This document shows, piece by piece, positions 1-25,199 of a stretch of 64,000 nt of DNA; position 1 is the first letter of the stretch; every line of letters starts with the position of its first letter. The notes beneath the pieces were generated by a model. It saw nothing but the letters and a program-made list of their open reading frames with translations. It did no database searches and was not told the DNA's origin. The translations under genes were made by a program, and so were the position numbers. Source of the stretch: Antedon mediterranea (Eukaryota > Animalia > Echinodermata). Where the stretch lies: contig NC_092671.1 of NCBI RefSeq assembly GCF_964355755.1, forward strand, positions 33,738,304 to 33,802,303, given 5' to 3'.

Positions 1-1589
1 TTCGATGTTATTAATCACAATAATTTAATTAAAAAACTTGAGTGCTATGGAATTAGAGGTATTTCATTGAATTGGTTTAATAGTTATTTGAAAGATAGAA
101 AACAATATGTTGCATTAGGATCTTGTACATCGTCGACGATGGATATTACTTGCGGAGTGCCACAGGGATATGTGCTTGGGCCATTGCTCTTCCTTATTTA
201 TGTTAATGATCTGGCTAATGTCAGTAACAAATTGCAAGTAATATCCTTCGCCGACGACACCACCTTATTTTACTCTAATTCCAATATTGATTTATTATTT
301 ACTACATTCAATGATGAATTAACAAAATTTTGGGACTGGTTTATTTCAAACAAATTACTTATTAATACTCTTAAAACAAATTATTAAATTTTTCACAATT
401 CTCAACGTAAACTAAAAGTTGATGACCTAAATATACTTCTTGGCGGAATTCAAATTGAACGCAAAACTGAAACACTTTTTTTAGGTGTATATATTCATGA
501 AAACCTCAAATGGACCAGTCATCAAAATTACGTTTCGAAAAAAATATCAAGATCTATTAGTATTATTAACAGACTTAAGCACTTCTTCCCTCTAAATATT
601 TTTAATTTCTCTTTATAACACACTTGTACTTCCTTATTTCTAGTATTGTAACATTATTTGGGCTGCAGATTACTCTTCTAATATTGCTAGATTAACTAAA
701 TTACAAAAACGTGCAGCTAGAATTATTACTTTTTCACCATATAGAACCTCATCTGAACCCCTTTTTAAACGTCTTGGTATATTAAAATTAACGGATATCC
801 ACAATGTTCAAGTTGCCAGTTTTATGTTTAATTATTTTAAAAACCAACTTCCTATTTCTATGATTGATATGCTCTGTAAACGTACCAAATTTCACAATTA
901 CAATTTAAGAACTTCTCATTTAAACATTCCTTTTGCTAGACTTACAAAAACTAAATTTTTTATAACTATATCAGGTCCTAATTTGTGGAATCATATCCCA
1001 CCAAATATCAAAACGTCAATATCATTATTTACTTTCCGAAAAAAGTTAAAGAATCATTATATATCTAAATATTATACTGCTTAGTTAATATGCTTATTAT
1101 CATTATTTATACTCATATACTATTTATGTCTTACACAAAATATTAGTTGTTGTTTATTATTGCAATCTTTAATCTATACTATATATAATGTATATAGTAT
1201 ATACTATATATATACTGGAATTATAATTTATGTATACATATTTTTTTTTTTCATTTACCAATATCGGTAGTTATTTCATTTATAATTATCATGAAACTAT
1301 TGAAATATAATTTAAATAATTTTTATAAAGAAGATGTTAGTTATGTTATTATACTGTAATTTTTTATCCTAAATTATATAATTATATATTCTAGGTTATT
1401 TTTATTTTTTTAGTAATGTGTTTTGTTATGGGTCCCTACGAGACAAGTTTTTAACTTCTAGAAGGGATCTATGATAATAATGACTACCAATTACTGCTTT
1501 ATCTATGTTCACTTTAATATCTTTTTTCTATTTTGTATATATTCATTCATTATTATCTAAATAAATATTATCTGAATCTGAATCTGAAT
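1..1589 (+). mobile_element. 3' part of a CR1/L2-group LINE (decayed RT plus 3' UTR), antisense within an intron of gene C
   Basis: Translation shows GVPQGYVLGPLLFLIYVND and FADDTT RT motifs, then a C-terminal ...GPNLWN... segment. There is a stop at 385-387 and later frameshifts. The element ends with AATAAA and a (TCTGAA)3 tail at about 1571-1588. Confidence 0.9.
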
Positions 1590-1838
1590 ACCGTTTGAGC
1601 TAAGTCGACGTTCACAGTATAATTACAGTTCCTACGCATAAATACCTATCGTCAGAATCATCCCCGATGATGATAGAATTGATTTAGAAATATTGATTGC
1701 TTGCACCATGACGTGCATTCGATAACGTTTGTAAAGCTCTTTCTTCAATCTACACTATCAAACTAGTTTGACAAAGGAAGTTTTTTTTACAAATTATACT
1801 GCTTGTTATGCATATTTTTTTTAAATTTTTAAACTTAC

Positions 1839-1874
1839 CTTCAGCGTTTAATCCATATCTTTTAGCAGCAGGTT
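1839..1874 (-). CDS. Gene C micro-exon (36 nt, phase 1-1): (K)PAAKRYGLNAE
   Basis: Flanked by ttctttattgcttcAG and GTaagttt. Both flanking introns are homologous to those of exon 9525-9560. Confidence 0.75.
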
Positions 1875-2002
1875 CTGAAGCAATAAAGAAAAAAATAACT
1901 TTAAAGTGTATAAGTTTTCAAATTAGATTAATAATATATTGTGCTTTGATTTTTTTCATGTTTTCAATTCAATTCAACTCAAAATAACATTTAGTTACTT
2001 TT

Positions 2003-2202
2003 AATTGTAGTTTTTGTGTCAGGGAAATGAGTAATTAGATGTTTTGCCCTCCTCTGACGTAATTTGTACTTTATACTAAGTACATTTGAGAATACTTGAC
2101 CATCCGAGAACTATACTTGTGAATTTTTTCTCAAATGTACTTAGTATAAAGTACAAATTACGTCAGAGTAGGGCAAAACATCTAATTACTCAAACTACAA
2201 TT
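2003..2202. mobile_element. Palindromic MITE-like element
   Basis: Near-perfect inverted arms of about 65 bp (2028-2092 vs 2128-2192), plus outer attgtagttt/aaactacaat. Confidence 0.7.
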
Positions 2203-2607
2203 ACAATCCTGTTGGTGCAGTACCCGCTGCTTACTTGGGCTCGAATCTAACCACAAGCCATCAGCGCAAGCTCGGTGGTCTAGAGGTATGAACGCCAGGC
2301 TAAGTGATTAGGTTATTAGGTTTGCGGGTTTGGTTATCAAATGTTATCTCTTTTTAGCTAGTTTATTATCCCGAACAAGCTGCTATAATCTGAAAAGGAG
2401 TCAGTAATTAGGTATTTTACAGGAGTGTTGCTTGCAGTTGAACGAAATTACGGTTCTATTGTATTTTGGCTTATTTTAGTTTGAATTAAGACATTGAGAT
2501 TTATGTGACACATCCTTTAATTTCAAGAGTTTCTTCTTTCTTGTGGACATACTTCGGTTTGGTTTTTATTACTTAGATTATAGTATATACGTATTTTTGT
2601 AACTTAC

Positions 2608-2637
2608 TTTCAGCGTTTATTTCCATAAAAGAAGGCT
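2608..2637 (-). CDS. Gene C micro-exon (30 nt, phase 1-1): (E)PSFMEINAE
   Basis: Flanked by ctttgttacAG and GTaagtt. It shares the AACGCTGAA (NAE) ending with sister exons. Confidence 0.72.
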
Positions 2638-3147
2638 CTGTAACAAAGATTAGAAGGAAACATAAAGGATACATTGTCTTTTTTAACCTTAATTATCTAA
2701 TGTGTTATCTCCTTTTAGTTAATTCAACATCTAGAAGGATATTTTGGATTAAAATAGAAGTTATCAACGTTTTCCGATAACGGGATGTGCGAATACGGGA
2801 TGATCGATACATAATTGGTGCTGAGACCAGAGTTCAATTAGAAAAGGCTGCAGGATAGCGCTTAGGGCGTATCCATACTTCGTTGCGGTTTAGGTTTTTT
2901 TTCTCACAAGTTTGTAGAGCACTTAGATGTTTCACGACATTAAGGCTCTATACATCAAAAGCATGCATTAAGATGCTATGCTTATAATGTGGCATAATTT
3001 CATAATGCTAAAGCTGCAGAGGAAAACTATAACATGTGCATACTCATTTCCCAACATGTAAGTGACGTTGTAATATTGATTAGGCCTATTATTATAAAAT
3101 ATTATGATTATCAAAGTAATAAATTAGAATAATAATGGTGTACTCAC

Positions 3148-3177
3148 CTACTTCACCTCGACGAACTCTGTCATGAA
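3148..3177 (-). CDS. Gene C micro-exon (30 nt, phase 1-1): (V)HDRVRRGEV, with a furin-type RxRR site
   Basis: Flanked by ttatgttatttcAG and GTgagta. It is paralogous to exon 18619-18645 (HNRVRREE). Confidence 0.75.
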   Translation of the reverse strand, partial: FMTEFVEVK

Positions 3178-3521
3178 CTGAAATAACATAACATATTAAT
3201 AACGAGTGATTAATAGAAAGGATATTGCATTGAAACATTGAATGTTAGTGTTTTGTGTTAACTGAGGTGAAGTTTATGCTTAAGATTGATTATAGTGTGT
3301 ATTTGAATTAATTATTCACTTTGTAACCGTAATATGTGGTCCCATGCCAGTATCGTTTATATTATAGTAATGTGTATTAAATTGGCGAATAAATATAATT
3401 TTTACTGTACTTTAAACATAAAAAGAAATATATAATACATAATTATATTACATGGTATTAAAATGCTGAAAATCATAAATTATCAAAGCAATTATTATCC
3501 GCTATCATCGAAATTATTAAC

Positions 3522-3575
3522 TTTCTGCTAAAGTATTATTTTATTTCATGAATACTATTATTCTATTAGGAGGTT
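3522..3575 (-). pseudogene. Decayed duplicate of a gene C module exon (EPP...LAE, with an in-frame TAA)
   Basis: The acceptor tttcAG|AACCTCC matches sister exons, and the upstream intron motif tgtgttatct..ttttagtt is shared with 2341, 2701 and 4021. The donor (GTtaat) is weak and there is an internal stop. Confidence 0.35.
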
Positions 3576-4276
3576 CTGAAATAGATCAGACGAAAAGCAT
3601 GAACACTTTAAATTTATATTCATGTAACAGATACGTTGATGTTTAGTAACCGTGTTTACCAAATGTGTTATCTACTTTTAGTTTAGTTTAATATCTTGAA
3701 GAATCTGTTTGATCCAAAAAGCAATTAATAAAAGTAGCCTACTAATGCTAGAATGTACTAATGGTTATAATGGAGCATGGTACACAGAACATGCAATTGG
3801 TTGTATTTTTGCTCGTATTAAGATCACGCGCCGTGCGGTACGGTAATTAGTTCTACCTAACAGAAAAGTGACGATACATAATTATGATAAATATGATGAT
3901 ATGATATATATGATATTTGGATTTAGATGAGGTTCTGAAACTGATCAGACAAAAGGCATGAACACTTTGAAATGTACATTCATGTAACAGATAAGTTGAT
4001 GTTTGTAACCGGGTTTATCAAATGTGCTATCTACTTTTAGTTTAGTTCAACATCTTGAAGGATTTGTTTAATCCAAAGAAAATTAATCAAAGTAGCCTAA
4101 TGTAAGAATGTATGCCTATGGTTATAATGGAACATGGTACACAGAAAATGCATTTGGTTGTATTTTTGCTCGTATAAAGATCACGCGCCGTGCGGTACGG
4201 TAATTAGTTCTACCTAACAGAAAAGTGAAGATACATAATTATGATAAATATGATGATATGATATATATGATATTTA
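3570..4276. repeat. Tandem duplication of about 359 bp (2 copies) covering an exon acceptor and upstream intron
   Basis: 3570-3918 and 3929-4276 align; for example gatcacgcgccgtgcggtacggtaattagttctacctaacag occurs in both. Confidence 0.9.
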
Positions 4277-4449
4277 AATTTTATAATCTTTTTGAACACA
4301 TTGATGTTTAAATTTAACATATAGATTTTAATTTTTTTAACTGTTTTTTAATATTGTGCAATTTGTATATGTAACTTATTCTCAATTCAATGTTATATTG
4401 CAATGAGTAGAATGAATAAAACCAGAAATGAACAAATGTAATAATAAAG

Positions 4450-6515
4450 TGATGATAATTGTAATATACCACCAGTACCTTGGTACAGTAGTAATGTATT
4501 GTAATATACCCCCAGTACCTTGGTACAGTAGTAATGTATTGTAATATACCCTCAGTACCTTGGTACAGTAGTAATGTATTGTAATATACCCTCAGTACCT
4601 TGGTACAGTAGTAATGTATTGTAATATACCCTCAGTACCTTGGTACAGTAGTAATGTATTGTAATATACCCCTAGTACCTTGGTACAGTAGTAATGTATT
4701 GTAATATACCCCCAGTACCTTGGTACAGTAGTAATGTATTGTAATATACCCCCAGTACCTTGGTACAGTAGTAATGTATTGTAATATACCCTCAGTACCT
4801 TGGTACAGTAGTAATGTATTGTAATATACCCTCAGTACCTTGGTACAGTAGTAATGTATTGTAATATACCCCCAGTACCTTGGTACAGTAGTAACGTATT
4901 GTAATATACCCCAGTACCTTGGTACAGTAGTAATGTATTGTAATATACCCCCAGTACCTTGGTACAGTAGTAATGTATTGTAATATACCCTCAGTACCTA
5001 TGTACAGTAGTAATGTATTGTAATATACCCCCAGTACCTTGGTACAGTAGTAATGTATTGTAATATACTCCCAGTACCTTGGTACAGTAGTAATGTATTG
5101 TAATATACCCCCAGTACCTTGGTACAGTAGTAATGTATTGTAATATACCCTCAGTACCTTGGTACAGTAGTAATGTATTGTAATATACCCTCAGTACCTT
5201 GGTACAGTAGTAATGTATTGTAATATACCCCCAGTACCTTGGTACAGTAGTAATGTATTGTTATATACCCTCAGTACCTTGGTACAGTAGTAATGTTTTG
5301 TAATATACCCCCAGTACCTTGGTACAGTAGTAATGTATTGTAATATACCCCCAGTACCTTAGTACATTAGTAATGTATTGTAATACCCCCAGTACCTTGG
5401 TACAGTAGTAATGTATTGTAATATACCCCCAGTACCTTGGTACAGTAGTAATGTATTGTAATATACCCCCAGTACCTTGGTACAGTAGTAATGTATTATA
5501 ATTATACCCTCAGTACCTTGGTACAGTAGTAATGTATTGTAATATACCCCCAGTACCTTGGTGCAGTAGTAATGTATTGTAATATACCCCAAGTACCTTG
5601 GTACAGTAGTAATGTATTGTAATATACCCCCAGTACCTTGGTACAGTAGTAATGTATTGTAATATACCCTCAGTACCTTGGTACAGTAGTAATGTATTAT
5701 AATATACCCTCAGTACCTTGGTACAGTAGTAATGTATTGTAATGTACCCTCAGTACCTTGGTACAGTAGTAATGTATTGTAATATACCCTCAGTACCTTG
5801 GTACAGTAGTAATGTATTGTAATATACCCATAGTACCTTGGTACAGTAGTAATGTATTATAATATACCCTCAGTACCTTGGTACAGTAGTAATGTATTGT
5901 AATATACCTCAGTACCTTGGTACAGTAGTAATGTATTGTAATATACCCTCAGTACCTTGGTACAGTAGTAATATTGTAATATACCCTCAGTACCTTGGTA
6001 CAGGAGTAATGTATTGTAATATACCCTCAGTACATTGGTACAGTAGTAATGTATTGTAATATACCTCAGTACCTTGGTACAGTAGTAATGTATTGTAATG
6101 TACTGTAAAGCTGACTGATGATAATTGTAATATACCCTCAGTACCTTGGTACAGTAGTAATGCATTGTAATATACCCTCAGTACCTTGGTACAGTGGTGG
6201 TAGTAATATATTGTAATATACCCTCAGTACCTTGGTACAGTAGTAATGTATTGTAATATACCCTCAGTACCTTGGTACAGTATAGTAATGTATTGTAATA
6301 TACCCTCAGTACATTGGTACAGTAGTAATGCATTGTAATATACCCTCAGTACCTTGGTACAGTATTAATGTATTGTAATATACCCTCAGTACCTTGGTAC
6401 AGTAGTAATGTATTGTAATACCCTCAGTACATTGGTACAGTAGTAATGTATTGTAATATACCCTCAGTACCTTGGTACAGTAGTAATGTATTGTAATGTA
6501 TTGTAAAGCTGACTC
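4450..6515. repeat. 40-bp minisatellite (about 50 units) GTAATATACCC(T/C)CAGTACCTTGGTACAGTAGTAATGTATT
   Basis: Directly visible period of 40 with no spacers. It forms two sub-blocks, each bracketed by gatgataatt and gtaaagctgact. Confidence 0.97.
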
Positions 6516-6904
6516 AAAAAACATGTATTCACTTCGACTACTCTTTTTAACAACTATTTTATTATGACTCATACAAATTGGTATAGGTACAGGTGGTATT
6601 TGTAAACCAACTGATAATACAGGAAGAGGAGTACTGATAACAAATGTATCATCTTGCCTACTGGCACAATAACTAGACATAACAATAATTAATGTTTCTA
6701 ATTTGTCTCGTGTCGTCTCTATATACATTTTTTTGAAAAGGAAGGCAGACGGCAAGTAGGCCTAGCCTGAATTCTACACAAAAAGTCTAGGCCTAGGCCC
6801 ATATTGAGGAAATAATTTAGAGTAGGTGTTAAAACTTCTTCTATATTGATACCGTTTGAGCTCTTAAGTTGGCGTTCACAGTATAAATACAGTTGTTCGC
6901 ATTA

Positions 6905-9335
6905 GGCCAAAAAAAAAAATTGTGTTGGCCACGTTTTTGGTAAATCCCAAAAATGGGTAGGTCGGTAGGAAAAGTTTTTTTTTTTTTTTTCAGACCAAAA
7001 ATGTGTTACCGGCAAAATAATAAACCATTTACACAAATGATACAAAAAGACTTTTTAAACACTTTTCATAGCACCATAGGCTCATTCTAGCTATAATTGT
7101 TTCAAAAAAAGTTTTAATAAGGTTTATTAAATAAACGTAGGCCTAGCCTTTTTAGGCAAAAAGGCCTAGGCTAGCCCTAGGCTCTAGCTACCATTTCCAA
7201 CAAAAAATCAAGGTCGAAATAAACTAGGCCTATTACCGTGTTAATGCTGCATTACGCAAGCGGCAAGTTAACATAGCCTATTATATTATTTTAGATGAAA
7301 CATATTGAGTTTTATATTGTTTTATCCATACATAATTACACTGGCATTTAAGATATATAACATTAAAATGTAGGCCATTATGAGCCATATATTTCGGCGA
7401 TTTCTTATCGCGGGGAAATTCCCCCAACCAGAGACATCGATCGATCGAGGAGTAGGCATAGGCTTAGCCGATTCACCACGATAAGCGCTTAAAGCGCTCA
7501 AAAAGTTAAAAGTCAAGGTCATTGTAAACAAATTATCAACAAAAAAAAAGTAAATCGAATTTACATGCGCAGTTTGCTGTGCATGAATCGTAACAACAAA
7601 TTATACAAAATACTCACAACTTCTTTTTTAAAAATATGCTTCTAAATATATAAAAACAATTGTTGAAGTTAGTTTGAAAATAAAATTCGAAAATATAACC
7701 GTTTTTCGAAGCACGCTGTTCGAAACGCGACAGGCGCGTTGAATGAATCTAGGCCTAAACATACAACGTAAAATCGTCTAAAATCCATCTTTATTTCTGA
7801 TAATCACTATTTTGAAGCTTGTATACAATAAATGTATAATAAATAAAGATTATGTATCAGTTACAGTGTCTAAATCGTCATATTTCCATGTAAAAATGTG
7901 ATTTTTCTACCGGAGAAAAGTCGTGAAGATGTCCTCACAAGGGCCGCGCCATATTGTTTACCTTTGATTGTAATATGAACCCTGACATGTCAGATGCATT
8001 ATGGGCATGAAATATTTGTTCAAACTCTGCGCAAAGGTCAGTTTATTGAAGCATAACTTTTGACAAACATTTTGATACCAAACTTGTTTTAATTTCATAA
8101 GTTTTCGACGCATTTTCGTCAAATTTTCTGCAAGCTACACGTCTAAAACAGCGGACTAAGCTCCCGAGGGATGCCGGTGCGCGTGAGAATCCCGAATTCC
8201 AAGTCGCTTTCGGGATGTTTTTTTTAACATTCCCGGTGAACAAACAGCGGCGACGACGACGCTCTCGGGGCGGCTCCCGATAGGCCTAGGCCCCATATGG
8301 TCATCGTCGGATGAGTCAGTCTACTAATTTCTTCATAATTTCGAAACCGGTCATTCATAATGGTCAAGTTTGGTCTTATTTTGAAGAGAAGAAATAGGTT
8401 CTGATGAAGAGATGAGTTTTATTATGAAATATTTATTAATTTTTGTGCATTTGGTAGTCAAAGATAAATTACAAATTTTTAATAATTTTCCTAAAATATT
8501 TCTAAAATTTGCATAATCCATACTCCGCAAAAATAAGTTGTAACACAAATTTGATAACATATTTGGAAATAAAATGTCCTTTGCATTATTTTTGTTTTTT
8601 AATTTTTTTAATGTCTGTGTTTAGAAAAAAAGTTAGGGTTAATTATATGACATATGCTTTTTGGGTCCCAGGGGAGCAAAATAAACTTAGGGGTCAATGG
8701 GTTAGAGGTCCGCCGGCTAGAGGCCTAGGCTACGTACATGCCGGAACAGATGGATTATCGCTATATAAATAACAAGCTTGAACAAAAGAGCTTACGACAA
8801 TCTTAGGTAATTTTTTTATTAAACATATAGGCCTACTTCCTTGGCGAATCCATGCCTTTTAAATCATTTAACAAATTCGTAAACGGATCGTAGTACTACT
8901 GTACAGTGAAACCAAAAATCACCGCATCAACAACCTCGTGCGATGTACGATCTGTTGTTCTTTGCATGCTGCAGATCAACATTGGTAGAGTCCATTAATT
9001 AAGAGGGTGTTTAAAAACGTGATAACTATTAAAAACCTGTCTCAACCACTGTGTAATCAAAGCGTTTATTTAATTAAAACTTGGATCCCCTCAAAATTGA
9101 TAATCGCGTATTCTGGTTATCACGTGATTGATTCACGGTTGGTTGCACGCTTCTTTTTTACGTCCGGAAGAGGTGAAATATGTTCGCCAATTTGGCAAAT
9201 AAGACAATATTGTTCACCATTTCGTTTCACAATTGCAGTTTGGCTCCCCCGCCCCCCCCCCCCCAAAAAAAAGTCGACATTCATTTTCGTCCATTTAGGG
9301 TCGGTCTGGCGTGGCCAACACAATTTTTTTAGGCC
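6905..9335. mobile_element. Non-autonomous TIR DNA transposon with TTA target duplication (Zator- or PIF/Harbinger-like)
   Basis: Termini are GGCC(A)nTTGTGTTGGCCACG and CGTGGCCAACACAA(T)nAGGCC, with TTA at 6902-6904 and 9336-9338. The paralogous intron at 1590-1720 is the empty site. No transposase ORF is present. Confidence 0.8.
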
Positions 9336-9524
9336 TTATATACGTCTCGTCAGGATCATCCCCGATGATGATAAAATTGATTTAGAAATATTGATTGCTT
9401 GCACCATGACGTGCATTTCATTCAGTTTGTAGAGTAAATCTCTATCTACAATCTACACTATCAAACTAGTTTACAAATCATAATATATTGTATGTTATGT
9501 ATATTTAGTTTTTTTTAAACTTAC

Positions 9525-9560
9525 CATCAGCGTTTAATCCACTTTTTTTAACAGGAGGTC
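9525..9560 (-). CDS. Gene C micro-exon (36 nt, phase 1-1): (R)PPVKKSGLNAD
   Basis: Flanked by tctttttattgcttcAG and GTaagttt, and in frame with the signal-peptide exon. Confidence 0.75.
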
Positions 9561-9974
9561 CTGAAGCAATAAAAAGAATATTAACTTTAAAGTGTAAAGC
9601 TTTTTAAATTAGAACAATCTATAATATATTTTGCTTATTTTAGAGAAACATTTTTATTGTCAAAGACTTCGTTTTGGATACTATATAAACCTTCCAAGTA
9701 AACGGACAGCCTAAACATTCAACATCGATACGACTTCGCGCTTAAGTGAACGTTAAACAAATTCATGTTTATAAGTCGAAATGGTACAAACATTTTATCT
9801 AGGGGAAAATAAACAATGATTTTATCTTTCGTCAAACGAATAGAAGAACAAGACTTTTTTTGTATAACAATGACCTTTAAACGACAGACCTAATCATTAG
9901 ACGACGCGGCATTCCAATTATAGACATAGTTTGCCATATTGGATAATTTGAAACAGTAGGATTTCACATTGCAA

Positions 9975-9978
<4 letters not shown>

Positions 9979-10055
<77 letters not shown>
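9979..10055. repeat. (TA)n microsatellite
   Basis: Pure TA run. Confidence 0.95.
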
Positions 10056-10058
<3 letters not shown>

Positions 10059-10515
10059 CTGTCTAATATATTAAAATTATAAGCACACAAATTGTAGTGT
10101 TAATAATGTCAATGAATAACCAAACAATCATAGGCTTAGGCCTAGCTATGCTAAAGCGCCTAGGTTAGAAAAGCTGCGATAACATTAAAGCTAAATTAAT
10201 TATTTATTTTGTCTAAATTTATACGTATCTCTCCAAAAATTCCGTCGCGATACAGTATTTTCATTGTTTAAAAAACGGCGGTGCTGTTGGATTTCACGTT
10301 CAACTTTTTTTTTCATACACAGAAGAAACGGAACAATACTATTTAACGATCTTTAAATAGTTCGTAATTTCATGACATGTAACCCACAATCGTCCAATCA
10401 AATGACCGGAATTTATTTAGGTGTTATATGTTTTACAATATATTAAAAATAAGCAGAAATTGAGAAATTATACACTTTTTAAAACATACATTACATTAAT
10501 AAAACAATAACTTAC

Positions 10516-10582
10516 TTGCCATGGCCAAGTGGTGGACTTGAAACACAAACAATATAACAAATACAACTACCAGCGATTTCAT
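10516..10582 (-). CDS. Gene C first coding exon, signal peptide MKSLVVVFVILFVFQVHHLAMA
   Basis: Acceptor tttatttcacAG|aATG and donor GCAA|GTaagtt (phase 1). Basic N-terminus, hydrophobic core and A-M-A cleavage motif. Confidence 0.78.
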
Positions 10583-11039
10583 TCTGTGAAATAAATATTT
10601 GTAGTGTTTAACATTTTCACAGAAAAAGGCTATCCTTGTCATAGCTATACAAGCACATTGGAAGTAGATCTGATTTTTCCTGGCCATGAAAAGGAAACAC
10701 TGGCCAACAAGCTCAGTCATTGCTGGGATTGGCTTCCTATAAAAATTAATTTGTTTACAGAATAAATAATAAATGAAACTCTTTGCCACTTTTATCAGCA
10801 ACTATATGTCAGACAAACATGGTTTGACGTAAAAGCCATGTTTGTTTAATTATACAGGTATTAGCCGTTATTCACGTTCCCACACACATTATGAAGCCAT
10901 ATCCTTAAACACTAAAGCCTGCAATTCAGCCCCATCTTTATTCATAAAAATTTAGCCATAACGTGTGGTTAACATGCTTGCCTTCCACGGTTCAATCTTG
11001 ACCTAGTACCAGGGTTGGAATTCACGACCGTTTTAATCA

Positions 11040-11385
11040 ACTCAATACACAATACTTGATGAAGGAGTTCTGGACTGGATGATGACGAGAACAACTGAGA
11101 ATGGAAACACAGGAATAAGATGGAAATTTAGAGAACTCCGCAGATTAAAATCAGAATGTATAGAATTGGATAGCACATGTGCTAAGAATGTAAGATGACA
11201 GCGATTGCAAAAAAGCATTGACATGGACACCTGATGGGCGAAAACAAAGTTGGACGTCTGAGAACTACGTGGAAATCATGGAGCGAGGCCAAGTGAGTTC
11301 CCAGAAACAGAAGAAGCTGGACATAGACCACTGCACTCTTCTGGGCCACAGGGCCCTAAGAGAGTAGATGAGATAGATTAGATTA
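11040..11385 (+). mobile_element. 3' end relic of an RTE-clade LINE
   Basis: Degenerate translation WIAHVLRM..CKKALTWTPDG..GR.RTTW..SWSEAK..NRRSW, followed by a short tagat-repeat tail. Confidence 0.65.
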
Positions 11386-11912
11386 TCCATCATGAAATTC
11401 TCGTTGTTTTTAAATTGCAATAATTAAAAGAAAAATCGTATATGATTATCAATAAAATGTGCTATTTCATAAATTAAAAACTAAATTAAAAGATATTAAC
11501 AGACAAGTCATTAACATATTAATTTCACAGAAACATTATTATTAAAGTTCAATCATAAGCAAACTAAAGCTCTTTGCTTAGCGTTTAAAAGAAAGTATTA
11601 CACTACAGGTTTCTTTAAAAAAAATAAATCCACGCAAAAAAAACCGGAAATACTTTCTTAAAATCCCTTTAAAAATTGAAAAAATGTGTAAAACAAACAT
11701 TATACAATCCATACTTATACTACGTCAAGCATAATGTTAACGAAGGACATCATAGGTTGTCATTTCCTCTTATTGGCTCCACACACTATATAATAATATC
11801 CACAATATCAAATATATTGTATATCATTCTTTATTTTGTCAGTTCAGCAAAACATGAACATAGAACGAAATTTAATTAATAAGACAGAAGTACCTAAAAA
11901 AGAAATACTTAC

Positions 11913-11970
11913 ATTTTACTTGACATGATAATATTACAACGTCAATACGATTGAGTTAAAGTGTCAGCTT
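11913..11970 (-). other. Candidate non-coding first exon of gene C (5' boundary uncertain)
   Basis: Strong donor |GTaagtat at 11912. A TATA-like TATATTAA lies near 11995-12002 and CACGTG near 12034 upstream. Confidence 0.35.
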
Positions 11971-13706
11971 CAAATAAACTAAATCGTCAAATCCTTAATA
12001 TAAAAAAGATACAGATTAAGCAAACGACGCTTTCACGTGATTGGTCAATTAACACCAAAGGTAAGTTCATCTAGAGAAACACGTCATCATCACCGTGTAA
12101 GTGTCAATGTTGACAATGTCTCCTCCAATTATGAATGTGAAAATTTGAAGAGATATATAATATAATTAATACATAATAATTAATAAATATAGTGAAAAAA
12201 TCTATTACTATTGTTAATAAATTAATAATTGAGTACCCTTCAGAAATCCATCGCCAATTTAGCTTCACTACGGGAAGAACAATGGCTGTCGGCCAACATG
12301 TCGAGTACCGTGGGCTCGTTCACCTAATAGTTTTATTGTGTGTGTTATTGGAAATCTTATTTTATCAAAAAATTACAAATTAAATTAATTTAAAAATGAA
12401 ATAAAAACAATTTACATGTAACTAGATGTAATACACATACCAGTGATATTTATTAGGCCGTCATCCATTCACAAACTGACGAGTTTTACAATAACAAACC
12501 TTTTTTCCATTATTCAAATTATAATATGGATTATGCTAAACACTCGGATGAGTTCATCAAATATGTGCGAAAACTTAAAAATGGTACGTCTGCACTGCTT
12601 CAGATGGAATTCGCAAAGAAATGTTAAAAATTTGCGTAACCACTATCATTACGTCTCTGGTTTATTCTATTAGTAAGTTAAGTTTGCTAACGCTTGTTCG
12701 CAAAAAAGGATCACAAATTCCATGGAGTATCCTAGTAATTGCAGTTAATATTAATTTATACGAACTCATCTGCTCAATACTATTAGGTAATAGTTATATT
12801 AATAGTAATTTTGCTATTAAAAAAAATTCTTTCTCGAAAAACAAATTGGTTTTCAAAAACTATCCGGCACGAGTGATCATATTATTTTGCATTTTAAATA
12901 TATTAATACTAAACAAATTAAAAAATGAGATCTGTATGTCTGCTATGTAGATTTTTCGACGGCGTTTGATACTTTCTTTATAAATTAATACATGATTGGC
13001 TTGACAAACGTATTACAGTAGCTGTAGTTCATATTAAGATTGTCAACAATCTTCTCCTTTGCAAACAATTAAATTGAATATTAAATAGTTTAAATAGATA
13101 CTGTACAAAATTGTTGATATTAACAAAGATAATTATAATTATCATTTTAAAAGTTTAAACATGTGGTTATATTCACTGCATTAATTCATATATTTCATAT
13201 AACAACAAGTAAAAAAGAATAACATTTGAATTTGCAATAATACTCATACAAATATAATTAAGCCAGTAGTATTATTGGTTTTTATTTATACGATATTACA
13301 ATATTAAAAAGGCACAAAACAACATCGTAAACTTATTGTTTTCTCTTATAATCATTAACAGATAATTCTGCCAAAGACAATACCATTTTAAAAGGTTAAA
13401 CATGTGGAAATATTCACTTCATTAATTCATATATAGTTTTAATAAAACACAGAAAGGATAGCATTTGCATTAATAATAATATTCCTACTAGTCGAATGTG
13501 TAAACAATAAAATATGTAGTTGTATTGGATTTATAAATATTCATTATTATAGTAACAACAAGAAAAATATACAACATATTTCATACTGTTTAAAACTAGA
13601 ATCAGATATCGAGATGCTGTGCAAGTTCACAATACACTATAATTAAATATTAAACAATAATTTGTATTATATATACACATAATAAACTCAAATATTATTT
13701 TATGCT

Positions 13707-13735
13707 TTACTTAATTTTTTTTCCTGTAGAAGGTT
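13707..13735 (-). CDS. Gene B terminal coding exon: (E)PSTGKKIK*
   Basis: Acceptor ctttctcttttatttcAG|AACCT gives the same xP start as the module exons. In-frame TAA at 13707-13709. The downstream sequence is homologous to 24.7 kb. Confidence 0.55.
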
Positions 13736-13914
13736 CTGAAATAAAAGAGAAAGAAAAATGTGAACTGCTAGATTTTAACACATGCAATACATTTTAATAT
13801 GCGATATATTTAATATAATATGTTCAATGAGGGCGTACTAAAGTAGTTAATTTGCTACTAAAATGGTCCTGTTTACACTATTTGGCCTACATGCAACATA
13901 ATAACATTCACAAA

Positions 13915-16626
13915 ATGAATGTATCGTTACTTATGTACTACTTCAATCGACTATGACAGTTTCAGCAAAGTGTTCAATTGCAAATATTTTACTATGTTTA
14001 GTTTTATTATTATAAAACATGAAAACCAATATTTCGTTACTGAGTGGATAAAATAATATTCAAAATTGTTTCTCTTTGCACCTATCCTCTGTCCATTCCT
14101 CGACCTTCATGTTACATACAAAACACAAATTGTGTTTGTTGAAATTTGACTAAACAATTTTGGTTCATTTTGTTTTCTTTCGGAAGTAATTACCAGGGTG
14201 CTACTTTTAGTTGACAACCTACAAATCACCTTGTCAATTTATTCGTTCCTGAAAACGACAGAATGTATCTATATATAAATTTACATAAGGGCAAAATTCG
14301 GTAAATTGCGCGTTACTTCTAGAATGTTTACTCGATGGTATATACAGTTTGTTCGTACTTTCTGTACTGATTTTAACCACCTGATGTAACCCTGTTTACT
14401 AATTAAATTGAGTTAGATAATTAGCTATTGACAATTAAAACGAATTTTGGTTCAACGATTTGCCCCAAATAGGGGTGTTTTCCGATCGTGGTATACACGG
14501 TATAATGCATGTCCATCGTGAAAAATACCCGCATACAATAATACGAGGATGCTTCGCATTTTCATATCTCCTCCTACGATAATTGTTTTTAATGGCTCAA
14601 AACCGGTTGAACAGCTCAAGTACAGCATCATAATGTTGAAGACAGGCCGACTTTCTTTAAAAAATACTATTTTGACAGATTTAATATACGTTTATTCAAA
14701 TGTATTGATTTGCAATGAATGGAACATTCCAAATTATTTGGTTTAACCATACTTGCAAACCTCCATGGTTTAACACAAGTAGATAAATTTATGGAACATT
14801 GGAGAATAAACATAAATATTATTGTAATGCTATACAATACTGCAAATAGGTATTAACCACTTTTGATCGCCATTTGAATCAAAAGTGTGTTGGTACTGTT
14901 AGATATAATATAAACAAATATACTAATAAACTTGATTACTGTGAGTGTGGGTAGCCCCTACTTTTAGATTATAAACACATAATAATATAATACTTTATTA
15001 CTGATAGTTGCTTCTCAACGTTTGTATTAATTAATAATTACAAAAATATAAACGTAGTAGTGGTCTTTAAATATACTTTAATATTTCAATCGACTATGAG
15101 ACAGTGACAATTTTAACAAAGTATTAAATCGGAAATGGTTTACTCTATTTAGTGGTATATTATTTATAGGCCTATAAAAAAAAATATTTCGTTAATGGAT
15201 GGCTAATAAAGAAATATAAAGAATAATTTAATATAAAGAATATATTAAAAAATTGTTCCTCTTTGTACCTATCCTCATCTCCAACCCTCAACTCTAATGT
15301 TTGATACAAAACACAAATTGGGTTTGTTTAAATGAGTCCAAATAAAAAATTTGGAATCATTTTGTGACAAGTTTCTATGTGCTAATTTTGGTTGACTACA
15401 TAAATCATTGTGTCTATATATTTGTTTCTGTACTAACGACAATGTTTTATAGTCCTGCCGTACGTAGGCCTACATTTGAAATCGCAATTTTTTTTACGCT
15501 GAAATTACTATGTATTCGAGAACCATCTAGTCTTCTATATATAAATTTACGTAAGGGCAAAATTCGGTAAATCGCGCCTTACTTCTAGAATTTTTACTCG
15601 ATGGTATATAAAGTTGGTTCGTACTTTCGATACTGATTTTAACCACCTGATGTAACCCTGTTTACTAATTAAATTAAGTTAGATACTTTAATATACGTTT
15701 ATACAAATATATTGATTTGCGATGAATGGAACATTCCAATCTCTGTGTCGTTCCACAAGTGTCTATTCCCTCAGGCGTCGTAAAGGAAAGTACTGTATAC
15801 TCATAACAGAAATTCGATCCATTTTTTATTCAATCTGTGCTGCAGAGATTGGATATAATTTTTTTTAAACGGATAATGAGCTAGTGCTAGAGTTTTCAGT
15901 CGCCGTATATTATGTACAAATCTTTATTTTTGCAGTTAAACCACCCACATCATCACCCTTCCCTAACTGGCATGAGTAGCGTTGTAAAGCCATAGTAGAC
16001 CCTGATAGGCCTACGGTGCATCATATGCCCTAAACGCAAAACAACTTTGGTGGGTAGGGTAGGAACCAACTTAAGTATGACTTGGCTCTAAGAAACCATT
16101 GAAAACCATTAGACCTACTAATTAAGTTGAGTTAGATAATTTAATATTTATTGACGATTAAATCGAATTTATGATTTTCCCCGAATAGAGGTGGTTTTCA
16201 CAAATTGTTTTACATTATATAAACATACACGTCGTAGTGATGTATCGTTACATGTACTGCTATTTCAATCTACTAGTGTTTAGTGGTATATTATTTGTAA
16301 AACATGAAAACAATTAATATTTTTTTACTAAATGGATAAAGAATATATTTAAAAATTGTTCTTCTTTGCACCCATCCTCTTCCCCATCCCTCAACCCTAA
16401 TGTTACATACAAAACACAAATTAAGTTTGTTTAAATTTGACTTAAACAATTGGTCTCATTTTGTGACAAGTTTCTCTTTCGGAAGTAATTCACAGGGTGC
16501 TAATTTTAGTTGAGTACATAAATTAGTGTCTATTTATTCGTTCCTGTAAACATGTATTATTGTACGTACATTTGAAATCGTCAGTTTTTTAACGCTGAAA
16601 TTATTATGTATTCGAGAACCATCTAG
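13915..16626 (+). mobile_element. Head-to-tail array of non-autonomous Helitron copies (partial 13915-14265; 14268-15530; 15534-16626)
   Basis: Copies start TCTATATATAAATTTAC and end ACCATCTAG|T. They belong to the same family as 25588-26785, but the terminal hairpin is deleted in these copies. Confidence 0.8.
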
Positions 16627-17350
16627 TTATTAATAATGTAACGTATCTGTTTTTGTTGTCGTATTCGTATAACTATTTTCCTATATTTATATAATCGTAC
16701 ACGTCCACAGAATCAACACTAAGTTAATTACGAAACAGGACGTTAGGGGCAGCGACAAACATCCTGTGTTCGCTAAAGCGTAAAATCGTAATTATACAGT
16801 CGGCGTAGTCCTTTAATTAGTTACGCACCCTTGCGCAAAGACGACGACGACCGACATTACCGCTTTCCCTTCTCGTCTTGCCGCGCGGGGCCCTTCGCTT
16901 GGTTTTGGTGATACAGGAATAGGCCTAAGCTAGGGGCCTCGTATTCAAACACCGCCCAAAATGTATTTCTTTTAACACCACCATTTTAACCCATAACAAT
17001 GTTATTTCGTTAAACAATTAAATTAGAAGTTAAACAAATTCACGTTAAGGTGTAATTTGAACTGTATATTTAAGATTATATTTACATTGTTTCTAGTCGT
17101 TCTCCGTAAACGGGAAAATGGCAACTTTTTCGTCCTCAAAAAGAAGACGACAGAATTTCACGCCCATTTTGTTTAAGCTCATGCATAAATTATTCATGAG
17201 CACCATCCTGTTGCTCCTCGTCCTGTTTCGCAAAGGACTGATGATGACGAGGACAATAATATCGAAGTATTGATTTCCTATACACGATGGTGCACTATCC
17301 AGTTTTCTTCGTATTTTAGGCGTATGAATTATGGATTGTATGCGACGTAC

Positions 17351-17380
17351 CTCCGGCGTTTAATCCACCAAGGGGAGGTC
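17351..17380 (-). pseudogene. Gene B module exon (R)PPLGGLNAG with an apparently mutated acceptor (cAA instead of cAG)
   Basis: Contains the GGATTAAACGC core and donor G|GTacgt. The upstream intron shares gtcaaagacttc with the flank of exon 9525. Using the AAG 1 nt inside gives 29 nt and a stop. Confidence 0.55.
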
Positions 17381-18289
17381 TTGAAAACATAAGCAATACC
17401 ATGATTAATATTAATTTATATCAATACCTATTAGATTAGATTTACTGTAATCTATAATTGTGCTTTGTATTGTAATTGCTTATTGTAATTTTTACTGTCA
17501 AAGACTTCATTTTGGGAAATCTAAATTCAACATGTATCCACTTTTGAAATGTAACGTTCATGAAATACAAAGGAAGATTGAGATAAAAATGGAAACTTTC
17601 GAGCCATCATGAAAGGTAACAACCGTCAAGATTATGCCTACATAAACAACTTAGGAAGAATAAAATGTACTAGACTATGCGTAAATATTAAACAACAAAT
17701 GTATGGCTTAGAGTGTTTGCTGTATCCTAAAAATGAATCATGATATTGAATAAGTCTACACAATCTTGTCTCTCGATTGAAGTTAAAACGCAGAATATCA
17801 AATCGCAAAGTACGTGCATACGTACGCACTATTAAGACCGGTGTGGCTTAAGGCAATCTACAGATATTAACATCCCTTCGGCCGCGTTCGTTATATTAAT
17901 GAACATGGTGATAAACGCACAATTCCATGTTTATCTAGTTATACGTGTTAAAAGTACTCTGTGAATAACGCTATGGCGTTAGTAAGTGGGGTTAACAACG
18001 CCTCTACATAATAGTTTACATTCACATGGGCTTATGCCTGCATTATGCCGTACGTGAAAATAAAAACTGTTCTTAGTTACGTTGTGGTTCAGCTTGTTCT
18101 TATTCAAATGCAGACATTTCCGATATATCCGAGTTGTAATCCTGTTATGTGGTTCGGGAAGGTATTGTGTGATTTTTAAATACAGCGGAGGTGTAGCGGT
18201 AGCTACGATTCAGTTTTAAAAATTGTTTTAATAAAATAATTATAATAGTAAGCATGTATACTATATGTATTATTATCCGCGTGACTTAC

Positions 18290-18319
18290 TTTCAGCAGCG
18301 TTTAATCCAGAAGGAAGTA
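18290..18319 (-). CDS. Gene B micro-exon (30 nt, phase 1-1): (V)LPSGLNAAE
   Basis: Flanked by ggattttttcAG and GTaagtc, and encodes the GLNA motif. Confidence 0.7.
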
Positions 18320-18618
18320 CTGAAAAAATCCAAAAGACAAAAAGTAGTATTAGCAAAGGTTAGTTTTATGTTTGAAAACTTGTTCGGATTGAAGCATTGA
18401 TCAGGGTATCGATAATTAAAATGATTATAATCAAATACAGTGTTTTGAGCGACTAAGCGTGGTGGTGAATTTCATGACAAAATTGATGACGTTGCTTGTT
18501 TTAAAATAGTATGCCTAAATGTTATTATAATTCCGTATTAGTTTAATTTAACTTATTATTATTATTAAATCATAAAAGCTTTATTGTTTAAGTTTAAGTG
18601 ATCTAGTTAGTAACTCAC

Positions 18619-18645
18619 CTTCTTCTCGACGGACTCTGTTATGAT
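18619..18645 (-). CDS. Gene B micro-exon (27 nt, phase 1-1): xHNRVRREE
   Basis: Flanked by ttatgtgttttAG and GTgagtt. It is a paralog of 3148-3177. Confidence 0.7.
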
Positions 18646-19222: not shown

Positions 19223-20345
<1,123 letters not shown>

Positions 20346-20585
20346 GGTTGAAATTTTCAGATCGTTTGGATAGAGTGCTCAATACCAAGGTAGAGCATAA
20401 ATAAATAAAATAACAGCAGAAAACTTGGTTACTTCATTGTTTTAATCACTACAAATTTGTTTCGTACGACCAGCATGTAACTGGCCGCACTCTTCATGTG
20501 AAATATAAAACATAAGTGACACAGTTGTCTCATAGTGCTTAATAGAAGTGAGTCATCGGGAAGTCGTATACAATAGCCTATTGTT

Positions 20586-21473
20586 TTAGATAAACTGTTT
20601 GGATCTGCAATTTAGTAAGAATTTTTTCCTATGTCTACAAGTAGAGACTAACTCGTTCTTACGGTTCAGTGAGCATAGCTCTGGTTGACATATAATAACA
20701 TACTTTTCATATATACATAAATTACATCTTTTGTTAATATTTGAGTAAGGTTTGCATTTCTTTATAATTTTCCATTTAATTGAGTAATTTGTTTTAGAGT
20801 CTTTAAGAAGTATCCATATATATTTACTGAGTTCCGTTGAATTTCTTAGTTTTTCGTTCCGGAATGAAGACGTATGGTTTCTGTATCTAGTTTTAAACTG
20901 GTTTTCAGTTAGTCCGACATATGTTTCTTCTTTTGATGAATCTTCTCTCTTTACTGTAGCTTGGTAAACTACACCTTTTGTTAGGCAGTTACTTGGGAGC
21001 GGGCATTCATTGGGATTGCGGCAGTTACATCCGCTTGTTTTCGCGTTGGTTTCAGTAGACTTTTCTTTGGCTATCACATATTTGTTGTGTGCGTTAATTA
21101 CTTTGTCTACGCTGGGCATGCAACTATAGCTTAGTTTCAAGGTATTTTTGTTAAATATTTTTCTGAGCTTGTTGCCGGCAGGAAAACAATCTTCTACTAT
21201 AGCTAAAAACTTGTGGCCGATGTTGGTTGCTACGTTTTTGCTGAATGGTGGGTTAAACCAAATTATGTTTCTGGTACGTGATTATTTGGGCTTCTGCTGT
21301 TCAGCATTGAACTCAAGTTGATGATTGTATCCACTTTCTTTGAGGGCTTCCTGGTATAGGGGTGCAGATGCATGAAATGTATCTTTGTCTGATGAGATGT
21401 CGGAAAGGCGTCTATTTATAGCAAGTGGGATGTTTCGGATAATAGATGGAGGATGGTTGCTGTCATGGTGCAC
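20586..21473 (-). pseudogene. Penelope ORF fragment (RT thumb/linker plus GIY-YIG endonuclease), interrupted near 21282
   Basis: ORFs 21282-21473 and 20586-21140 are consecutive parts of the typical Penelope protein. Confidence 0.85.
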
Positions 21474-21935
21474 GTAGGTTGGTTTGTTATTAGGCTTAGT
21501 GAAAGGTCGGAAGAAACATATGTCGGACTAACTGAAAACAAGTTTAAAACTAGATACAGAAACCATACGTCTTCATTCCGGAACGAAAAACTAAGAAATG
21601 CAACGGAACTCAGTAAATATATATGGATACTTAAAGACTCTAAAACAAATTACTCAATTAAATGGAAAATTATAAAGAAATGCAAACCTTACTCAAATAT
21701 TAACAAAAGATGTAATTTATGTATATATGAAAAGTATGTTATTATATGTCAACCAGAGCTATGCTCACTGAACCGTAAGAACGAGTTAGTCTCTACTTGT
21801 AGACATAGGAAAAAATTCTTACTAAATTGCAGATCCAAACAGTTTATCTAAAACAATAGGCTATTGTATACGACTTCCCGATGACTCACTTCTATTAAGC
21901 ACTATGAGACAACTGTGTCACTTATGTTTTATATT

Positions 21936-21991: not shown

Positions 21992-22027
21992 TTAAAACAA
22001 TGAAGTAACCAAGTTTTCTGCTGTTAT

Positions 22028-22122
<95 letters not shown>

Positions 22123-22901: not shown

Positions 22902-25161
22902 GAATTAATGTTCTTTGCCTGATTTGTTTATATATATAAAAGTATCTTTTCGGAGATCCCGCCTCGTGAATAAAAATACTGTAAGATGAGGGCGTATCAA
23001 TTTGATCTCTGGTACCTAGAAAAAATTGGGATTGTTCACTGTAGGGATTCTGAATTTGAGTTGTAGTAAATCATGGTCAAATGGAAAATAAAATTATAAA
23101 TTAATGGTAAGCAGTATTCTCTACATTAATTATTACTCACAACCAGTATATCAAACTTTGATTTACATAAAATAGACATAAACATAATTACTTGAAAATC
23201 TCCTGAAATATTTTTTTTTTCGCTCTAGAAAATATTATATCATACCCCAAAATGTTAATTATTTACTCAAAATACATGCAAATATTTCTCAATCATCATA
23301 ATTACTATAATGGAATATGATGCTTTTATTGATTTTTTTTATTCATTTGGTGGAACAAACGATAAAAACAGGGACAATTCAATTCATTGTTTTTAACAAT
23401 AAGACTAGGCGAGGTCCTGATGAGTGCTACAAACAATACAAAAAACTACAATACAAAAAATAATGTTACTCTCTAACGCTTGTTATTTTAAAACAGTGTC
23501 AGTCACAACACAAATTGGATGGTTAAAAATGTTGCATGGTATTAACAATATATAAGATGAAATACTAATTTCGGACTTTTAATAAAACATAAAATATTTA
23601 CTACACATTTAGGAAAGCGTGTGCTTTATCCCTCGTAGTCGTACTCGTTTAAAATATTATGTGATTTGTGTTTCAGTACTGTTTTATTTTATACTTCCAC
23701 TTTTACTTAATATATTTTAAGTTAAATACCGGCCAATATTTAATTAAAAATTGTCATGATTCAGTACCTAATATCTACGCTGTCAACTTTTATTTGATAC
23801 TGTATAATTATAACATATGCCAAACATTTCAGATTTACATATTTATTTATTTGAAGTAACACTCTGAAGTCTAAGAAAACAAATGCATACACTAATAAAT
23901 TAAAACATTTGTTGGTATTTTGGGTAGAATCATCTTTATTTTGGATTAAATTATGCAGTAAATAAATGGTTTAATCAATGGATTGGAAAAAGATACTTCC
24001 CTTAGACAGCCATAATACTGCAATCTGATTGGCTAGCGCCTAAATAATAGTAAAATCTTATCCTATACTTCCTTTGCCTTGATTTTATTGTCAAAAAGTG
24101 GACGAACTTCCTAATTATGATATTAATATCTCGCTTAATATAAGGTTTCTGGCAATGATTTTTAGTTTAAAATGTACAGAATGATCTCCTGAATCATGTA
24201 CAACCCATAACTCATTTTTGAAAAAAATGTCCCATACTTCCCTTTGCCATAGGGGGGCAGAATAGTTTTAGAGTAATAGCTGAGTAGTGAGTAATAATAG
24301 TAATAATAGGCCTAGATAATGTTTAATTGAAAATCAACTAGGTTTTTAAAAAAGATCCAGCATCATTGATCATACTATTTTTATTTTTAAATATGGGCCT
24401 ATTATTAATAAACAATACAAAACAAATTGATTTTTCGGCTGCATTTGAGGATCTGTTTGGTACAAAGATCAAAATCGTTGACAACACATGATTAGCTCAA
24501 CAAAGGTTTTTTTGTATCCGAATCCATAAAATGTCTATAGAATCCACAAAGTGTCTATATCGTTTTGTAGTTCATAAGGCTATTACTGTTTTTAACCAAA
24601 TCATTACCATAACTCATTATCAGGCAATTGCAGACAATTTTACCAACGTTTTTATATTAACAGTAACTAGACCATGCCAAATAAAGGTTAAACATCTGGA
24701 GATGTTCACTTCATTAATTAATTTATTTTTAACAAGAAGAGAAACTTATTGTTTCCTCTTTCATTAACAGATAATTCTTCAAAAGACAATACCATTTTAA
24801 AAGGTTATTTAAACATGTGGATATATTCACTTCATTAATTCATATAATATTTAATAAAACACAGAAAGGATACCATCTGTTAACAAGTTGTTTTAAACTT
24901 CAATGCACCATCCTTCTGTAATTCTTCATTTTAGTCAGACATCTTACTCTTCCTTCCTTCAGATATCTTCTCCAAAACTATCTCTTACTTGTTGAAATTA
25001 TTGCGGTCCTCAGTATATTCTTTCTCTGATGGTGAATTTGTCTTAGTCCTAATCATTTTTAATTATTTCCGTGTTCAAAATATTTACTAAAGTCCTATAT
25101 TTCATTATTGTATTATCATAATGTGTCAGTACTGCACATTTTATTTACATTTTATATTTAG

Positions 25162-25199
25162 TTATTTTTTTACAACTGTCATTGTCTTGTCAAAAGGCT
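25162..25199 (-). CDS. Orphan terminal exon of a third paralog: (E)PFDKTMTVVKK*
   Basis: Acceptor ttatttttcaataccAG|AGCCT. It has the same phase, xP start and basic end as 13707-13735. Downstream 24680-24870 is homologous to 13140-13460. Upstream exons were not found. Confidence 0.4.

What the first reader, a model, noticed from the sequence alone, without database searches (positions are those of the whole stretch)
1839..18645. Hidden family of micro-exon genes encoding modular secreted peptide precursors (RVRR plus GLNA modules)
Seen in sequence: a signal-peptide exon (10516-10582) and 27-36 nt exons with canonical splice sites, all phase 1-1. Gene C splices to MKSLVVVFVILFVFQVHHLAMA-RPPVKKSGLNAD-VHDRVRRGEV-EPSFMEINAE-KPAAKRYGLNAE-..., continuing off the window. 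Gene B gives ...xHNRVRREE-VLPSGLNAAE-(RPPLGGLNAG)-EPSTGKKIK*, with the same exon order. Established: RxRR and KR/KK are furin/prohormone-convertase sites, and symmetric micro-exons can be skipped without frameshift, as in schistosome MEG genes. Inference: this is a lineage-specific multi-peptide precursor family (signalling, pheromone, defence or matrix peptides) diversified by exon duplication and skipping. I do not recognise the GLNA(E/D/G) module from any known family, and it is invisible to ORF-based annotation.
Basis: partly seen in the sequence, partly recalled or inferred. Interest (0 to 1): 0.85.

Follow-up and report, generated by a model that had tools for sequence, protein, structure and literature searches.

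The report
Feather-star micro-exon peptide precursor gene
A feather-star gene is spliced from a row of tiny 30-36-base exons into a small protein with no relative in the databases searched, which is likely secreted and predicted to be cut into short repeated peptides, making it a likely but untested new signalling-peptide precursor.

Summary
The main observation holds. One RNA-like run covers only the three exons tested and joins two of them. So gene C is real and spliced, but already annotated, not hidden. The 97-109-residue product has a hydrophobic leader, two RVRR and three KK/KR sites, and two tandem three-exon units; it is predicted to yield two GLNA peptides and two acidic INAE peptides. 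No homologue was found, and it is not among the published crinoid neuropeptide precursors. 'Gene B' is a true paralogous exon row, but it has no nearby signal exon, one non-canonical acceptor and no expression test, so 'family' rests on one proven gene plus remnants. The layout resembles schistosome MEGs and aphid bicycle genes; the processing plan resembles neuropeptide and frog-skin precursors; it belongs to none. Cleavage, tissue and function are untested.

The parts
11913..11926 (-). Gene C exon C0, coding end (ATG plus 14 bases, GTAAGT donor, phase 2). CCAAT at 12044, CACGTG at 12039 and TATA at 12002 lie upstream (promoter-like, untested).
   Evidence: gives residues 1-5 of P0002-P0006
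10516..10583 (-). Gene C exon C1, signal-peptide exon (68 bases, second ATG at 10582, ends in phase 1)
   Evidence: best 9-residue hydropathy 3.88
9525..9560 (-). Gene C exon C2, 36 bases, KK site plus GLNA; skipped in RefSeq isoform X5
3148..3177 (-). Gene C exon C3, 30 bases, RVRR site
   Evidence: covered and joined to C4 in run X1
2608..2637 (-). Gene C exon C4, 30 bases, acidic INAE module
1839..1874 (-). Gene C exon C5, 36 bases, KR site plus GLNA; duplicate of C2 including its introns. The gene goes on beyond position 1 (38 more residues in P0006).
18619..18645 (-). Gene B exon B1, 27 bases, RVRR; paralogue of C3
   Evidence: (E 8e-08 within the window)
18290..18319 (-). Gene B exon B2, 30 bases, GLNA; positional paralogue of C4
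17351..17380 (-). Gene B exon-like B3, 30 bases, GLNA; paralogue of C2/C5 with a non-canonical acceptor
13707..13735 (-). Gene B candidate last exon (stop codon), AATAAA at 13286
   Evidence: inferred, no RNA test
24300..25199 (-). Remnant of a third copy: a last-exon-like stretch from 25199 (short frame ending in a stop) followed by DNA that aligns with the region 3' of gene B (12813-13476)
   Evidence: inferred
3540..3575 (-). Exon-like stretch with an acceptor and intron similar to those of C4, no donor, early stop; absent from the five RefSeq isoforms

Best explanation
Gene C is a spliced feather-star gene of 30-36-base in-frame exons whose product is likely secreted and is predicted to be cut at its RVRR, KK and KR sites into short repeated peptides that likely act as extracellular signals. 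Shown: the exon chain, its match to five annotated isoforms, splicing of C3 to C4 in one RNA-like run, and growth by tandem duplication of a three-exon unit (basic-site/GLNA exon, RVRR exon, acidic INAE exon) together with its introns. Inferred: the leader is removed after residue 27 of P0006; furin-type and PC1/PC2-type convertases release two related GLNA peptides (residues 34-42 and 66-74, two residues longer if cut only after the RR pair), two acidic peptides (47-63, 79-94) and a C-terminal peptide (97-109), none amidated. Each GLNA peptide spans an exon junction. Skipping C2 would remove the first GLNA peptide, and skipping the second INAE exon would shorten the second acidic peptide, so splicing would tune the peptide mix. 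Gene B is most likely a 5'-truncated or decaying paralogue.
For: Exact match of exons to XP_071943195-200: 71 of 71 residues for four isoforms, and 59 of 59 for X5 with C2 skipped. Run X1 has one depth value (103.2) spread over 31, 33 and 36 bases at C3, C4 and C5, zero depth in the unique intron bins next to them, and a joint from 2639 to 3151; runs X2, X4 and X5 cover the introns. RVRR is kept in both units of gene C and in gene B, whose flanks have drifted to near-random identity (0.59/0.62 against 0.54/0.58 shuffled; exon 0.73). The GLNA codons are the same in C2, C5 and B2, with one synonymous change in B3. The mature region has no Cys or Trp, a hydropathy of -1.0 and an unconfident Atlas model (pLDDT 0.41), as expected of an unfolded precursor. 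It meets both criteria used to call predicted crinoid neuropeptide precursors (PMC9793003 section 36). That RxRR and dibasic pairs are convertase sites is established knowledge (recalled; RXXR/KR/RR in frog precursors per PMC3731216 passages).
Against: No peptide, tissue or receptor evidence. No Gly-basic amidation signal. No similarity to any of PCNP1-20 or the other precursors of three crinoids; most PCNPs are shared by two or three species, whereas this protein found no relative, which fits a fast-evolving non-neural product equally well. Between C2 and C5 all 6 base differences in internal codons change the amino acid and none is silent; this is not significant (P about 0.21) but shows no purifying selection outside GLNA. 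The signal peptide was judged by hydropathy only. The skip isoforms are database models that I could not check against reads. X1 is only guessed to be RNA, and the C4-C5 joint is inferred from depth, not shown.
Confidence: 0.5

Rival explanations
1. The precursor is cut as predicted, but the peptides are surface or gland products for defence, anti-fouling, adhesion or dealing with symbionts, diversified by exon shuffling like schistosome MEGs, aphid bicycle proteins or frog-skin peptides.
For: Orphan status; only amino-acid-changing differences between duplicate exons, and a Tyr/Ser variant at 1856 in DNA-like run X2; transposon-rich tandem locus with decaying copies; micro-exon secreted genes elsewhere are interface proteins (PMC8293314, PMC9168663 passages); a second small secreted-type gene lies 25 kb upstream.
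Against: The predicted peptides are acidic or neutral (charge -4 to 0 for the five longer ones) and have no Cys, unlike cationic antimicrobial or disulphide-held toxin peptides. Copy number in the window is low. The excess of amino-acid changes is not significant.
Confidence: 0.27
2. The product works as one small disordered secreted protein (a matrix, mucus or mineral-binding component), and the basic clusters are not used as cut sites.
For: Alternating basic and acidic modules with a repeated [LIV]N[AT][ED] end; the whole mature region has pI 9.2; no amidation signal.
Against: A full RVRR site is kept in three exon copies while the neighbouring introns have diverged; the basic pairs fall at regular positions around a repeated short motif.
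Confidence: 0.15
3. A young, expressed but nearly neutral orphan gene whose repeats only reflect recent duplication.
For: C2/C5 introns are still 68-72% identical against 81% for the exons; paralogous pieces are decaying; no outside homologue.
Against: Splice sites, frame and motifs are kept in all gene C exons; exon identity exceeds intron identity between genes B and C; the spliced contig has depth 103 against 2.9 for the one unique intronic contig in X1.
Confidence: 0.08

Closest known systems
RefSeq XP_071943195.1, XP_071943197.1-XP_071943200.1, Antedon mediterranea 'uncharacterized protein' isoforms X1-X5
   Same: The same protein: the window's exons give its first 71 residues letter for letter.
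   Different: The records carry no functional name; the peptide-precursor reading, the duplication history and the gene B paralogue are not part of the name.
Schistosome micro-exon genes (MEGs) (PMC8293314, passages read)
   Same: Coding region mostly of symmetric exons of 36 bases or less, signal peptide, in-frame skipping, transposon-rich surroundings.
   Different: No sequence homology; free-living deuterostome; repeated convertase sites suggest a multi-peptide precursor. 'Furin' and 'cleavage' do not occur in the main text of the MEG survey PMC10526429 (word search only).
Aphid bicycle genes (PMC9168663, passages read)
   Same: Secreted products, many micro-exons that all start at the second codon position, growth by internal duplication, homologues hard to find by sequence.
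   Different: No CYC motif (no Cys in the mature region), fewer exons, no sign of a large family in this window, no homology.
Echinoderm neuropeptide precursors, including crinoid PCNP1-20 (PMC9793003: sections 7 and 36, passages, part 2 of supplement 2 read; all 7 supplements word-searched)
   Same: About 100 residues, signal peptide, repeated short peptides between dibasic sites, acidic spacers.
   Different: No shared motif, no amidation signal, RVRR sites, no detected orthologue in other crinoids, neural expression unknown.
Pipid frog skin AMP/HLP precursors (magainin, caerulein) (PMC3731216, passages read)
   Same: 75-96-residue precursors with RXXR/KR/RR sites, tandem-duplicated peptide exons, peptides split over two exons, gene cluster with pseudogenes and incomplete copies.
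   Different: Those derive from cck and give cationic helical or hormone-like peptides; here the peptides are acidic or neutral and the exons are much shorter.

Membership tests
Schistosome MEG | Mostly short (36 bases or less) symmetric exons | tested here: met
   4 of 4 internal exons after the leader in the window are 30-36 bases, phase 1-1; the rest of the gene is off-window and inferred from protein modules
Schistosome MEG | Signal peptide | tested here: met
   Hydropathy core 3.88 ending in small residues; no SignalP run
Schistosome MEG | Variation by exon skipping | tested here: inconclusive
   Two different skips among 5 RefSeq isoforms; not checked in reads
Schistosome MEG | Raised dN/dS | tested here: inconclusive
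   6 of 6 internal differences between C2 and C5 are non-synonymous, P about 0.21
Schistosome MEG | Homology to MEG families, restricted to schistosomes | tested here: not met
   No hit but itself among 1.84 billion representatives; crinoid protein
Crinoid neuropeptide precursor (PCNP criteria) | Signal peptide plus peptides bounded by dibasic sites | tested here: met
   against the criteria
Crinoid neuropeptide precursor (PCNP criteria) | Homology to a described precursor | tested here: not met
   GLNA, RVRR, EINAE, LNAD, LNAE: 0 hits in 7 supplements, control motif found; PCNP1-20 compared by eye; 0 hits in the main text of the starfish survey PMC4772807 (figures not held)
Crinoid neuropeptide precursor (PCNP criteria) | C-terminal Gly for amidation (common, not required) | tested here: not met
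   No Gly before any basic site
Crinoid neuropeptide precursor (PCNP criteria) | Neuronal expression, processed peptides, receptor | not testable with these tools
   Run labels are coded; no peptidomics
Aphid bicycle genes | Micro-exons all starting at codon position 2 | tested here: met
Aphid bicycle genes | CYC motif or homology | tested here: not met
   0 Cys in the mature region; no hit
Pipid AMP/HLP precursors | RXXR/KR sites and tandem peptide exons | tested here: met
Pipid AMP/HLP precursors | Cationic peptide, cck ancestry | tested here: not met
   Peptide charges -4 to 0; no Pfam family at E up to 10

The most novel reading that the evidence does not exclude
Crinoids have a so-far undescribed class of peptide signal (pheromone-like or neurohormonal) encoded in MEG-style cassettes: each basic site, core motif and spacer sits on its own skippable micro-exon, so splicing and exon duplication assemble different peptide cocktails, and gene B is a second active member spliced from the distant leader exon at 44.1 kb. 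That would extend the schistosome/aphid micro-exon strategy to prohormone-type precursors in a free-living deuterostome.
Probability: 0.2. Interest if true: 0.75.

Novelty: new variant of a known kind. Interest (0 to 1): 0.45.

Why it matters
It adds a candidate peptide precursor that the one dedicated crinoid neuropeptide survey does not list, in the lineage that is sister to all other echinoderms. It also shows the secreted micro-exon gene design, described mainly from parasite and herbivore effectors, in a free-living animal and combined with convertase sites. The predicted peptides are short and easy to synthesise and look for by mass spectrometry. The limits are that the gene model already exists in RefSeq, only one gene is proven, and nothing yet ties it to a function.

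Tried and rejected
No whole genome was held, so no genome-wide count of paralogues and no view of the off-window exons. Run search: 5 runs listed, no RNA holder on record, one guessed RNA. Homologue searches with P0002 or P0006: 2 of 13 candidates scored, both its own isoforms (lengths 59-189 only); 1 hit at E up to 0.001 among 1.84 billion representatives, its own isoform; 0 Pfam families for 3 isoforms; 0 PDB sequences; Atlas best feature score 0.85 to plant small secreted proteins, below the 0.9 bar, and no usable named hit for the mature part; JGI metagenomes: 257 pattern matches, 0 confirmed and 0 exact DNA matches. These searches would miss a short, diverged orthologue, and I did not check which crinoid proteomes the databases hold. 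The leader exon at 44.1 kb found 1 candidate and 0 scored hits among 39-126-residue proteins, so neither gene A nor a gene B starting there is shown as annotated; longer proteins were not searched. Literature: 'GLNAE' with 'echinoderm' gave 0 papers; searches listed nothing on this gene (listings only). A link to sea-urchin sperm-activating peptides (recalled resemblance of an LNG/LNA core) was considered and dropped as too weak; one search gave no crinoid paper to test it. Cleavage after the conserved Asn by an asparaginyl endopeptidase was considered; there is no evidence for it. No structure prediction was run because the Atlas model is already unconfident. Earlier findings by place, sequence and words gave nothing on this locus.

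Full report
Observation. The window is AT-rich animal DNA (GC 26-39%). All have canonical sites except 17380-17351, whose in-register acceptor reads CAA. The pattern is not chance: of 15 strict micro-exon candidates in the window, 6 carry an [LI]NA or RxRR motif, against a mean of 0.01 and a maximum of 1 in 100 Markov simulations (the motif was picked after seeing the data). The RVRR-exon pattern has 2 matches and the GLNA-plus-donor pattern 3, with none in 100 shuffles each.

Identity. A search with the unspliced frame over the leader exon found 2 of 2 candidates, both Antedon mediterranea 'uncharacterized protein' isoforms. Their clusters hold five RefSeq isoforms of 97-109 residues. A. mediterranea is a feather star. 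X3 and X4 lack a 10-residue block further on, and X2 and X4 lack one residue at the last junction.

Splicing evidence. Four coded runs were laid on 1650-3230. X2, X4 and X5 (one sample) cover introns and exons alike and behave as DNA. X1, guessed to be RNA, has zero depth in the bins spanning 2339-2603, 2657-2868, 3081-3133 and 3187-3230, but 64.2, 60.3 and 44.8+25.3 in the bins of C4, C3 and C5. These equal one depth of 103.2 over 33, 31 and 36 of 53 bases. A joint from 2639 to 3151 at depth 103.2 is listed, which is the C3-C4 splice with one differing letter. The C4-C5 joint is not among the rows shown and is inferred from depth. X1 also holds high-copy repeats and one 165-base intronic contig at depth 2.9. 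Gene B and exons C0-C2 could not be tested.

How it was built. The protein has two tandem three-exon units (basic-site/GLNA, RVRR, acidic INAE) and two shorter related end modules. C2 and C5 align with their introns (79% over 324 bases), so the unit was duplicated as genomic DNA. Gene B has the same order, and its introns align weakly with those of C3 and C2. Exon against upstream/downstream intron identity: C2/C5 0.81 against 0.68/0.72; C3/B1 0.73 against 0.59/0.62; C4/B2 0.73 against 0.53/0.55; C2/B3 0.67 against 0.63/0.56; shuffled introns give 0.53-0.60. Exons are better kept in all 4 same-type pairs, only slightly so for C2/B3. All 6 internal base differences between C2 and C5 change the amino acid, while the GLNA codons are identical; with 7.5 of 33 sites synonymous this is not significant (P about 0.21). 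A Tyr/Ser variant at 1856 appears in run X2.

Gene B. No signal-like exon lies between 18.7 and 44 kb; the only two on the minus strand are at 10583 and 44100. The latter found no scored database protein of 39-126 residues and is followed by its own short exon candidates, so it more likely belongs to a separate gene. A further last-exon-like stretch at 25199 is followed by DNA that aligns with the region 3' of gene B. The simplest reading is one intact gene plus truncated or decaying copies in a transposon-rich tandem locus. An active gene B with a distant leader exon is not excluded.

Mechanism. The leader is strongly hydrophobic (3.88 over 9 residues). The 82-residue mature region has no Cys or Trp, two RVRR and three KK/KR sites, and no confident fold (pLDDT 0.41). 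Cutting at these sites, which is established convertase behaviour but untested here, would release two related GLNA peptides (P0006 residues 34-42, 66-74; charge -2), two acidic peptides (47-63, 79-94; -3 and -4) and a neutral C-terminal peptide (97-109). None has an amidation Gly. Repeated short motifs between basic sites are the usual signature of signalling-peptide precursors, and the charge argues against cationic antimicrobial peptides, so I put extracellular signalling first (0.5), then defence or interface peptides (0.27), an uncut matrix protein (0.15) and a near-neutral orphan (0.08).

Comparison. No homologue was found in the 5.8-billion-protein word search, the 1.84-billion-representative HMMER search, Pfam, PDB, the Atlas or JGI metagenomes; these would miss a short diverged orthologue. 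The crinoid neuropeptide survey PMC9793003 does not hold its motifs in the main text or in 7 supplements, where a control motif was found; one store of supplements gave no answer and long cells were cut. PCNP1-20 look unrelated by eye. It works like a schistosome MEG or aphid bicycle gene in exon layout and like neuropeptide or pipid frog skin precursors in processing plan, but fails the homology test for each.

Verdict. Real, spliced, already modelled in RefSeq but, in the searches named, undescribed: a new variant that joins micro-exon cassette architecture with a multi-peptide precursor plan. One gene is proven, the family and the function are not. Interest 0.45.

Noticed in passing
window 44100-44024, 43338-43304, 42713-42687, about 42225-42150 (minus strand): A second small secreted-type gene candidate: leader exon (hydropathy 3.94, phase-1 donor), two short exon candidates and a stretch with six Cys before a stop. 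No canonical acceptor lies in front of the first Cys pair. No scored database hit for the leader. Not joined or tested.
   Followed up: partly
window 27517-32319 and 50663-52025: 654-base direct repeats (99.5% identical) flank about 3.5 kb holding 314- and 177-residue open frames with no Pfam family; a third, 84% identical partial copy lies at 50.7-52.0 kb. An unclassified LTR-like element.
   Followed up: partly
window 52787-63752: LTR-retrotransposon gag/protease and reverse-transcriptase frames; a 3686-base unit is repeated in tandem at 100% identity, either very recent or an assembly effect.
   Followed up: no
window 20264-22123: Inverted pair of endonuclease-like frames with 411-base arms at 99%, flanked by TA runs; looks like a Penelope-type element (recalled; Pfam gave no family).
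   Followed up: no
window 1-1590: LINE reverse-transcriptase fragment on the plus strand inside the intron after exon C5.
   Followed up: partly
window 4460-6500: About 50 copies of a 40-base minisatellite fill a third of the 6.3-kb C2-C3 intron.
   Followed up: no
window 1750-1781 and 2192-2302: Two very high-copy short elements in gene C introns (summed depth in the tens of thousands or more for the first in all four runs); the second has a tRNA-like end and looks like a SINE (label inferred). The first also lies in the matching intron after C2, so it predates the duplication.
   Followed up: no
window 2312-2940: DNA-like runs show a second sequence about 5-10% different across the C3-C5 introns, either a divergent allele or the off-window second unit.
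   Followed up: no
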